DNA from: Octopus sinensis | Lineage: Eukaryota | DNA length: 64,000 bases | NCBI RefSeq assembly: GCF_006345805.1 | Contig: NC_042998.1 | Span: 33,790,001-33,854,000, forward strand | Direction of reading: 5' to 3' | In this document: piece by piece, positions 55,712 through 55,772 of the stretch | Layout of the letters: each line of letters begins with the position of its first letter | How positions within the stretch are numbered: position 1 is the stretch's first letter | Made by a program: the position numbers and the translations under genes | The notes under the pieces: generated by a model | Seen by the model: the letters and a program-made list of their open reading frames with translations, nothing else | Told to the model about the DNA's origin: nothing | The model's database searches: none

Positions 55712-55772
55712 ACCCTTTATCAGTTGTCGGCTGTACCTACTCCTCATTTCGAGCATTCAACGACAATATGAG
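55712..55772 (-). ncRNA. Non-circularly permuted hammerhead-like ribozyme (A at position 8 in this copy)
   Basis: cuca-U-A-uugucg-uugaau-gcuc-GAAA-ugag-13 nt-cgacaa-CUGAUAA-A-gggu. Confidence 0.68.

What the first reader, a model, noticed from the sequence alone, without database searches (positions are those of the whole stretch)
55712..55772. Hammerhead with a non-circular (pseudoknotted) strand order
Seen (minus strand): [cuca-UA-uugucg]-6 nt-[gcuc-GAAA-ugag]-13 nt-[cgacaa-CUGAUAA-A-gggu]. All three stems pair (III cuca/ugag, I uugucg/cgacaa, II gggu/gcuc) and abut the core nucleotides exactly. Known: with a = cleavage strand, b = CUGANGA strand, c = GAAA strand, types I/II/III are the cyclic orders bca, cab and abc. 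Here the order is a-c-b, which can only fold as a pseudoknot or by strand swapping in a multimer, and standard descriptors would miss it. I recall that natural non-circular hammerhead permutations have been reported, so novelty of this family needs checking. This copy has A at position 8; the sister copies keep G8.
Basis: partly seen in the sequence, partly recalled or inferred. Interest (0 to 1): 0.92.

Follow-up and report, generated by a model that had tools for sequence, protein, structure and literature searches.

The report
Split-core permuted hammerhead in Naiad retrotransposons
This is a decayed copy of a probable self-cutting RNA, present in thousands of copies in this octopus-like genome and at the ends of Naiad retrotransposons of other animals that were thought to lack one, whose strands come in a scrambled order and whose catalytic core appears to be split and rejoined by an extra four-way junction; cutting has not been tested.

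Summary
Observation confirmed: hammerhead blocks in the non-circular order S-G-C (site, GAAA, CUGANGA). That order is known (type SGC, Eckert 2023) but was not reported from genomes of known organisms. Here it sits in a 720-nt Penelope-like repeat, with 7,887 core-pattern matches against 4 controls. Across subfamilies an upstream strand X pairs with the strand before GAAA. The strand after CUGANGA pairs with an upstream strand W, which abuts a hairpin H, which abuts X (7 of 14 pairs compensatory). The chain thus seems opened between A9 and G10.1 and closed by a four-way junction, outside the six block orders Eckert allowed. The same fold ends a Naiad family here (ribozyme downstream of 15 of 30 ORF remnants, 0 otherwise). 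By eye it also ends 11 published Naiad consensus sequences (ctenophore, corals, cephalopods and others); 8 nematode and spider entries show type CSG. Naiads were reported to lack hammerheads. Unshown: cleavage, RNA evidence, the autonomous partner of this family. This copy is probably dead (G8A, broken Z helix). The scan had no earlier record of it.

The parts
55576..56296 (-). Whole non-autonomous Penelope-like unit (about 720 nt; family A); no ORF
   Evidence: Homology among copies runs about 460-500 nt upstream of the ribozyme stretch and ends in (TA)n; partial tandems (L009) and inverted 5'-truncated copies (L030, L012). Ends approximate.
56255..56296 (-). 35-40 nt 'tail' followed by a GTAAGT splice-donor-like motif (56260-56255)
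   Evidence: Same tail found at the 3' end of L007 and at the tandem joint of L009; tail and 5' intron are PLE features in PMC8557442. Splicing inferred, not shown.
55825..55830 (-). W strand (GACCCU); pairs with the strand right after A9
   Evidence: 94% of cells paired, one compensatory column; mean pair probability 0.86-0.95 in 5 of 6 intact copies folded, 0.48 in the Naiad copy
55791..55824 (-). Hairpin H, directly between W and X; contains an AG acceptor-like site (55801-55800)
   Evidence: 3 of 4 scored pairs compensatory; present in the MFE fold of this copy
55786..55790 (-). X strand (GAGCA) = 5' strand of stem II, first G = G10.1
   Evidence: 3 of 5 pairs compensatory; G-C and A-U at the first two positions in 28 and 30 of 30 copies
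55780..55784 (-). Z strand remnant (stem I-stem II interaction helix); one base deleted in this copy
   Evidence: 6 bp in the family majority, 5-9 bp in four other subfamilies; window differences
55761..55772 (-). Block S: stem III strand, AUA site (predicted cut between 55767 and 55766), stem I strand
55743..55755 (-). Block G: Y strand (UGCUC), GAAA, stem III strand
55731..55736 (-). Z' strand remnant (two bases deleted in this copy)
55717..55729 (-). Stem I strand and CUGANGA core (here CUGAUAA, G8A)
55711..55716 (-).
55430..55575 (.). (TA)n microsatellite at the 3' end: likely target site
   Evidence: (TA)n preference listed for cephalopod Naiads

Best explanation
The element is a non-autonomous Penelope-like retroelement, probably of Naiad origin, whose 3' region encodes a hammerhead ribozyme in the order W-H-X-Z-[III' NUH I']-[Y GAAA III]-Z'-[I CUGANGA]-W'. 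Stem II is X:Y. Z:Z' ties the far ends of stems I and II together, like the interaction helix of type SGC. The backbone link A9-G10.1 is replaced by a four-way junction: A9 runs into W:W', and hairpin H runs into G10.1. So the form is the S-G-C cycle opened inside block C. Shown: sequence, copy number, covariation, link of the same fold to Naiad ORF remnants. Inferred: standard hammerhead chemistry (G12 base, G8 2'-OH acid) cuts after NUH about 190 nt before the element's 3' end, trimming tandem precursor RNA to unit length; four helices hold the two product ends together, which would favour re-ligation to a circular template for the reverse transcriptase. Monomer or two-copy docking is open. 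The window copy itself is probably inactive.
For: Five subfamily majorities (30, 29, 24, 7, 5 copies) keep all seven helices with different sequences. W+H+X:Y on a sequence-only alignment: 94.5% paired, 7 of 14 pairs and 64 cells compensatory, score 0.413 against at most 0.089 when slid. W:W' plus X:Y stack at about -17 to -24 kcal/mol against -1 to -5.6 for the alternative stem II. Site is always NUH: AUA, GUU/GUC, GUA. Naiad-type ribozyme: 244 pattern matches, 0 controls; downstream and sense in 15 of 30 Naiad ORF-end loci, 0 of 30 otherwise. Same fold by eye in 11 published Naiad consensus 3' regions. An unpaired base at this step is usual in PLE hammerheads (PMC4209133), so the step tolerates interruption.
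Against: No cleavage data. No RNA evidence either way. Only one W column covaries inside A2, and W is 3 bp plus a mismatch in the Naiad family. Nested folding programs predict W and H but, being blind to pseudoknots, rarely X:Y. Copies are related, so compensatory cells are few independent events. Within family A the core decays as fast as the rest (2.8% vs 3.1%), as expected for dead copies. 5' ends do not pile up at the site (676 vs 642 matches either side). No ORF found joined to families A-E. Cross-phylum pairings were read by eye from consensus sequences.
Confidence: 0.7

Rival explanations
1. Plain type SGC hammerhead: stem II is made by the strand after CUGANGA (one bulged A) and Y; X, W and H are bystanders.
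For: 4 bp possible in 5 of the 6 well-resolved octopus subfamilies, 96.7% paired, G-C at 10.1-11.1 in 30 of 30. A bulged base before stem II is usual in PLE hammerheads. Type SGC is proven to cleave (PMC10085705).
Against: 55 of 120 cells Watson-Crick; one column is U-G in 30 of 30; 1 of 4 pairs changes on both sides, and then to a wobble. 2 bp in the Naiad family. No pairing in coral, ctenophore and four other Naiad sequences (by eye). It must displace two much stronger helices.
Confidence: 0.13
2. Splicing switch: W and H lie in a retained intron, so spliced and unspliced RNAs carry different ribozymes. W:W' clamps or silences the core until the intron is removed.
For: A GTAAGT motif opens the unit, and an AG lies in H or right at the H/X border in several subfamilies. 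A spliced/unspliced difference in the hammerhead is reported for Drosophila Penelope (PMC4209133).
Against: No AG at the H/X border in the coral and ctenophore sequences. X would remain after splicing. No donor-to-acceptor joint in four contig sets of uncertain kind, which proves little.
Confidence: 0.1
3. The fold is a non-catalytic signal (reverse transcriptase or packaging site) derived from a hammerhead.
For: No activity shown; no pile-up of 5' ends at the site; many Naiads, for example the bivalve entries, showed no such core in my motif look-ups.
Against: Only catalytic positions are fixed across phyla, while N7 (U, A, G) and H17 (A, C, U) vary exactly as hammerhead chemistry allows.
Confidence: 0.07

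Closest known systems
Type-SGC hammerhead ribozyme (HRIMA-1; Eckert et al. 2023, PMC10085705; read parts 1 and 3-6 of 8, passages, supplement term search)
   Same: Order site-GAAA-CUGANGA; short linker from stem I to stem II (1-5 nt here); extra helix joining the far ends of stems I and II; full conserved core.
   Different: There CUGANGA runs directly into stem II, which the authors assumed cannot be interrupted. Here stem II appears to come from an upstream strand with two added helices. There the hosts are metatranscriptome RNAs and none lay in genomes of known organisms; here an animal retroelement in thousands of copies.
Type-CSG hammerhead (same paper; two metagenomic sequences)
   Same: Same strand cycle. 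Moving the cut point of the present form from A9/G10.1 to between stem III and Z' gives CSG. Eight nematode and spider Naiad entries show this order with a Z helix (by eye).
   Different: Block C is intact; no W or H.
Minimal type I hammerheads of Penelope-like pLTRs and non-LTR retrozymes (PMC4209133, passages; bioRxiv 10.64898/2026.07.22.740005, part 1 of 5 and passages)
   Same: Position near the element's 3' end, sense strand, tandem units, proposed precursor trimming and circularisation, possible two-copy action.
   Different: Circular order C-G-S, local stem II hairpin, tiny palindromic stem III. Here stem III is 4-12 bp and not palindromic.
Naiad Penelope-like elements (Craig et al. 2021, PMC8557442; passages, supplement parts 1 and 24 and motif look-ups)
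   Same: (TA)n target, partial tandems, inverted truncated copies, tail. The Naiad_Ovul and Naiad_Obim 3' ends carry this fold, and that family is in this genome.
   Different: The paper reports no canonical hammerhead, only 'HHR_core' and 'HHR_half_core' flags. Family A has no ORF and its partner was not found.
Pseudoknot (PK) hammerhead (PMC11300833; parts 1-2 of 6)
   Same: Stem II region remodelled while C3-G8, A9-G12 and G10.1-C11.1 are kept.
   Different: No break between A9 and G10.1 is described in the parts read, and no scrambled block order.

Membership tests
Hammerhead ribozyme | Core CUGANGA, GAAA, NUH | tested here: met
   Met in family majorities; this copy has G8A
Hammerhead ribozyme | Stems I and III abut the core, with covariation | tested here: met
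   Different sequences, all paired, in five subfamily majorities. The MAFFT alignment A2 is out of register for these stems, so no formal count.
Hammerhead ribozyme | Stem II closed by G10.1-C11.1 next to GAAA | tested here: met
   Through X:Y, G-C in 28 of 30
Hammerhead ribozyme | Site-specific self-cleavage | not testable with these tools
   Needs transcription in vitro
Hammerhead types I, II, III (Rfam models) | Circular order C-G-S, no pseudoknot | tested here: not met
   Order is S-G-C; no Rfam hit
Type-SGC hammerhead | Block order S, G, C | tested here: met
Type-SGC hammerhead | Block C continuous: CUGANGA followed within 1-2 nt by the stem II strand | tested here: inconclusive
   Drawable with wobbles in families A-E; 2 bp in the Naiad family; absent in six other Naiad sequences or sequence groups
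Type-SGC hammerhead | Helix joining the far ends of stems I and II | tested here: met
   Z:Z' 5-9 bp in five majorities, but formed with the upstream strand; broken in this copy
Penelope-like element (non-autonomous) | Partial tandems, inverted 5'-truncated copies, tail, microsatellite target | tested here: met
Naiad clade | ORF with N-terminal GIY-YIG and Naiad RT joined to this 3' end | tested here: inconclusive
   Met for the sister N family by likeness of ORF remnants to published Naiad_Ovul/Obim. No ORF joined to families A-E.
Non-LTR retrozyme | Tandem units with type I hammerhead that give circular RNA | tested here: not met
   Not type I; mostly dispersed copies; circular RNA not testable

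The most novel reading that the evidence does not exclude
A seventh natural hammerhead topology, in which the core strand is broken between A9 and G10.1 and rejoined through a four-way junction, is active and is the normal ribozyme of a large part of the Naiad clade across animal phyla. Other Naiads use type CSG, so one retroelement clade has reopened the same reversed strand cycle at different points. The rod-shaped monomer may cut only when its apical loop docks into a second copy.
Probability: 0.55. Interest if true: 0.9.

Novelty: new variant of a known kind. Interest (0 to 1): 0.84.

Why it matters
It would overturn the stated absence of hammerheads from Naiads and explain their 'half core' flags. 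It would move non-circularly permuted RNAs from uncultured metatranscriptomes into animal genomes at thousands of copies, and raise type CSG from two known sequences to a nematode and spider group. It would break the assumption that CUGANGA and stem II are one block, so current descriptors miss a class of ribozymes. It offers a natural series for how RNA permutations arise, and a direct test of what ribozymes do in Penelope-like retrotransposition.

Tried and rejected
Rfam scan of the window: 0 hits. Single-strand fold of 55690-55800: z -0.56, uninformative for a pseudoknot. Partner search: the GIY-YIG search gave mostly elements with a C-terminal endonuclease (781-aa RT plus GIY-YIG, Neptune-like by inference) and different 3' ends. 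Family B-D copies lie near 5 of those 30 loci, in both orientations and mostly across (TA)n, which I read as shared target sites. Ten weak Naiad RT hits showed no family A-E ribozyme. Runs: no RNA holder listed; four contig sets laid on one family D unit showed no splice joint and cannot show ends. 5'-truncation test: 903 matches with the Y probe, 676 just 3' of the site, 642 just 5' of it; no step at the site; the further upstream probe was not obtained. MAFFT misregistered stems I, III and Z between subfamilies and misaligned the Naiad family, so those were scored by anchored script. One search stopped with an error after 9 clusters: five full, one partial, one decayed, two chance; smaller clusters were not printed. 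Of the 30 unselected loci, 13 fit the descriptor in register, 2 out of register, 8 were 5'-truncated and 7 decayed. Lunse et al. 2017 was not held. Literature searches; none showed permuted or split hammerheads in Naiads or animals, but most subscription journals and bioRxiv supplements are not covered. Eckert's supplement has no hit for Octopus, Eukaryota, Metazoa, Mollusca or Nematoda. Earlier scan notes: nothing relevant.

Full report
1. Observation. A descriptor for all six block orders returns this place as S-G-C with stems I 6, II 4 and III 4 bp beyond the A-U pair. Rfam has no match in the window. The stretch is a repeat: 2,727 first-look candidates in a 2.72 Gb genome. The majority of 30 copies has CUGAUGA, GAAA and AUA. 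The window copy differs by G8A, one deletion in Z, and one substitution and two deletions near Z'. G8 pairs with C3 and supplies the general acid (PMC11300833), so this copy is probably dead. The genome is an octopus by inference: a motif of the published Naiad_Ovul consensus matches exactly 244 times, control 0.

2. The element. Copies share about 460-500 nt upstream, end in (TA)n, and occur as partial tandems and inverted 5'-truncated pairs with a 35-40 nt tail. These are the hallmarks given for Penelope-like elements (PMC8557442). The window holds a full unit of about 720 nt with no ORF. A second window repeat (440-580, minus; 1,810 candidates) has the same order with different stems: I CUGCCC/GGGCAG, III CGUG/CACG, site GUC or GUU. 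A general GAAA...CUGAWGA pattern has 7,887 matches against 4 for the reversed control and shows many subfamilies.

3. Stem II is elsewhere. In each family a strand about 20 nt upstream of the site (X) pairs perfectly with the strand before GAAA (Y): GAGCA/UGCUC, GAAGG/CCUUC, GACACC/GGUGUC. X is followed by Z, which pairs with the strand just before stem I. X is preceded, with no gap, by a hairpin H. H is preceded, with no gap, by W, which pairs with the bases that start right after A9. In five subfamily majorities (30, 29, 24, 7 and 5 of 134 copies) all seven helices form. The site was chosen by stem III alone and W by its partner alone, so stem I and H are independent checks. On a sequence-only alignment of 30 copies, W, H and X:Y are 94.5% paired, with 7 of 14 pairs and 64 cells compensatory and a score of 0.413 against at most 0.089 when slid. 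The copies are related, so this is a few events. It is worth -1 to -5.6 kcal/mol against -17 to -24 for W plus X:Y. It is therefore not excluded inside this superfamily, but it shrinks to 2 bp in the Naiad family.

4. Naiads. Craig et al. found no canonical hammerhead in Naiads, only cores, some with the GAAA half 35-50 nt away on either side; Naiad_Ovul is flagged HHR_half_core. Its 3' end and that of Naiad_Obim show the full fold. In this genome the ribozyme lies downstream and in sense of 15 of 30 Naiad ORF-end remnants within 1.5 kb, and in 0 of 30 otherwise. Reading the supplement by eye through motif look-ups, not a full scan of all 54 entries, I find the same fold in 11 consensus sequences. 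Headers were seen for seven: Naiad_Bfor, Amil, Aacu, Anas, Esco (degenerate), Obim, Ovul. Four lie in parts 9, 12 (two) and 19, headers not seen. In Amil, X:Y is 6 bp, H 6, W 8, Z 10, III 11 and I 6, and the bases after A9 cannot pair with Y. In Bfor, Z is 15 bp and W 10 bp with U-U pairs at the junction. Eight entries show type CSG with an intact block C and a Z helix: Nbra-1, -2, -3, Hcon, Hpol, Smim, and two in part 13 with headers not seen. A few more, Ptep and two in part 17, have S-G-C order with a stem II I could not settle. The bivalve entries showed nothing in these look-ups.

5. How it most likely works. Stems I, II and III assemble the standard core. Z plays the role of the I-II interaction helix that type SGC needs. 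A9 and G10.1 are joined through a four-way junction of W, H, stem II and the core stack; coaxial stacking of W on H is my inference. PLE hammerheads usually carry an unpaired base at this very step. Without X:Y and stem I, the RNA is a simple rod whose apical loop holds NUH, I', Y and GAAA and whose inner loop holds X and CUGANGA. The loop may fold back on its own rod, which the 7-8 nt linkers of family A could allow. Or it may dock on a second copy, which seems needed where Z runs straight into stem III, as in Amil; Eckert noted the same geometric puzzle. Cutting would trim tandem transcripts to unit length. W, II, Z and III would then hold the new ends together and favour circles, the template model proposed for PLEs. 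All of this paragraph is inference.

6. Against. No cleavage assay. No run on record as RNA, and contigs showed no splice joint; neither counts as evidence. No step in copy number at the site. No selection on the core among family A copies. No ORF joined to families A-E, so Naiad origin for this family rests on the shared fold and layout; I put it at about 70%.

7. Known and new. The S-G-C order is known and proven, but the paper states that none of its RNAs, bar one bacterial GCS candidate, lay in genomes of known organisms, and it assumes CUGANGA and stem II are one block. My searches found no report of permuted hammerheads in Naiads or animals, or of a break at A9/G10.1; a 2026 preprint on retrozymes uses type I models only. 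Subscription papers and preprint supplements were not visible. It works like a hammerhead. It is not type I, II or III, and probably not strict type SGC. Verdict: new variant of a known kind, interest 0.84.

Noticed in passing
window 440-580 (-): 5'-truncated family B copy with the same S-G-C ribozyme; U16.1 is changed to G in this copy.
   Followed up: yes
window 5040-5200 (-) and 57139-57275 (-): 3' fragments of related elements: a family C piece that keeps the CUGAUGA block, and a family A 3' end without the ribozyme.
   Followed up: partly
window 10278 (+), 15736 (+), 16066 (-), 17988 (-): CUGANGA motifs that look like ordinary Penelope-type hammerheads in the circular order; 17988 lacks a clear GAAA. 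Both kinds of hammerhead share this window.
   Followed up: no
window 4960-4985 (-): Hammerhead-like motif with CUGUGGA in place of CUGANGA, a normal stem II hairpin and GAAA; possibly a core variant of a common repeat.
   Followed up: no
L091-L094: Young Penelope-like family with C-terminal GIY-YIG (781 aa) and an overlapping upstream ORF of 479 aa or more; no hammerhead found by my patterns in about 900 nt after the stop codon.
   Followed up: partly
L016:2060-3102: Two near-identical tandem family D units 876 nt apart, a young subfamily and the best template for assays; also present in runs of four coded organisms.
   Followed up: partly
L164, L172, L175, L185, L186: A YAG after a pyrimidine tract lies exactly at the H/X border, so G10.1 could be the first base of an exon.
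   Followed up: partly
PMC8557442 supplement File S5, parts 21, 25, 26: Hemichordate and some bivalve Naiad entries carry a different conserved GC-rich motif just after the stop codon; it could be another structured RNA or ribozyme.
   Followed up: no
window 22657-23700 and 24752-25794: Long, 97-99% complementary inverted repeat, resembling the inverted arrangement of Penelope-like insertions.
   Followed up: no
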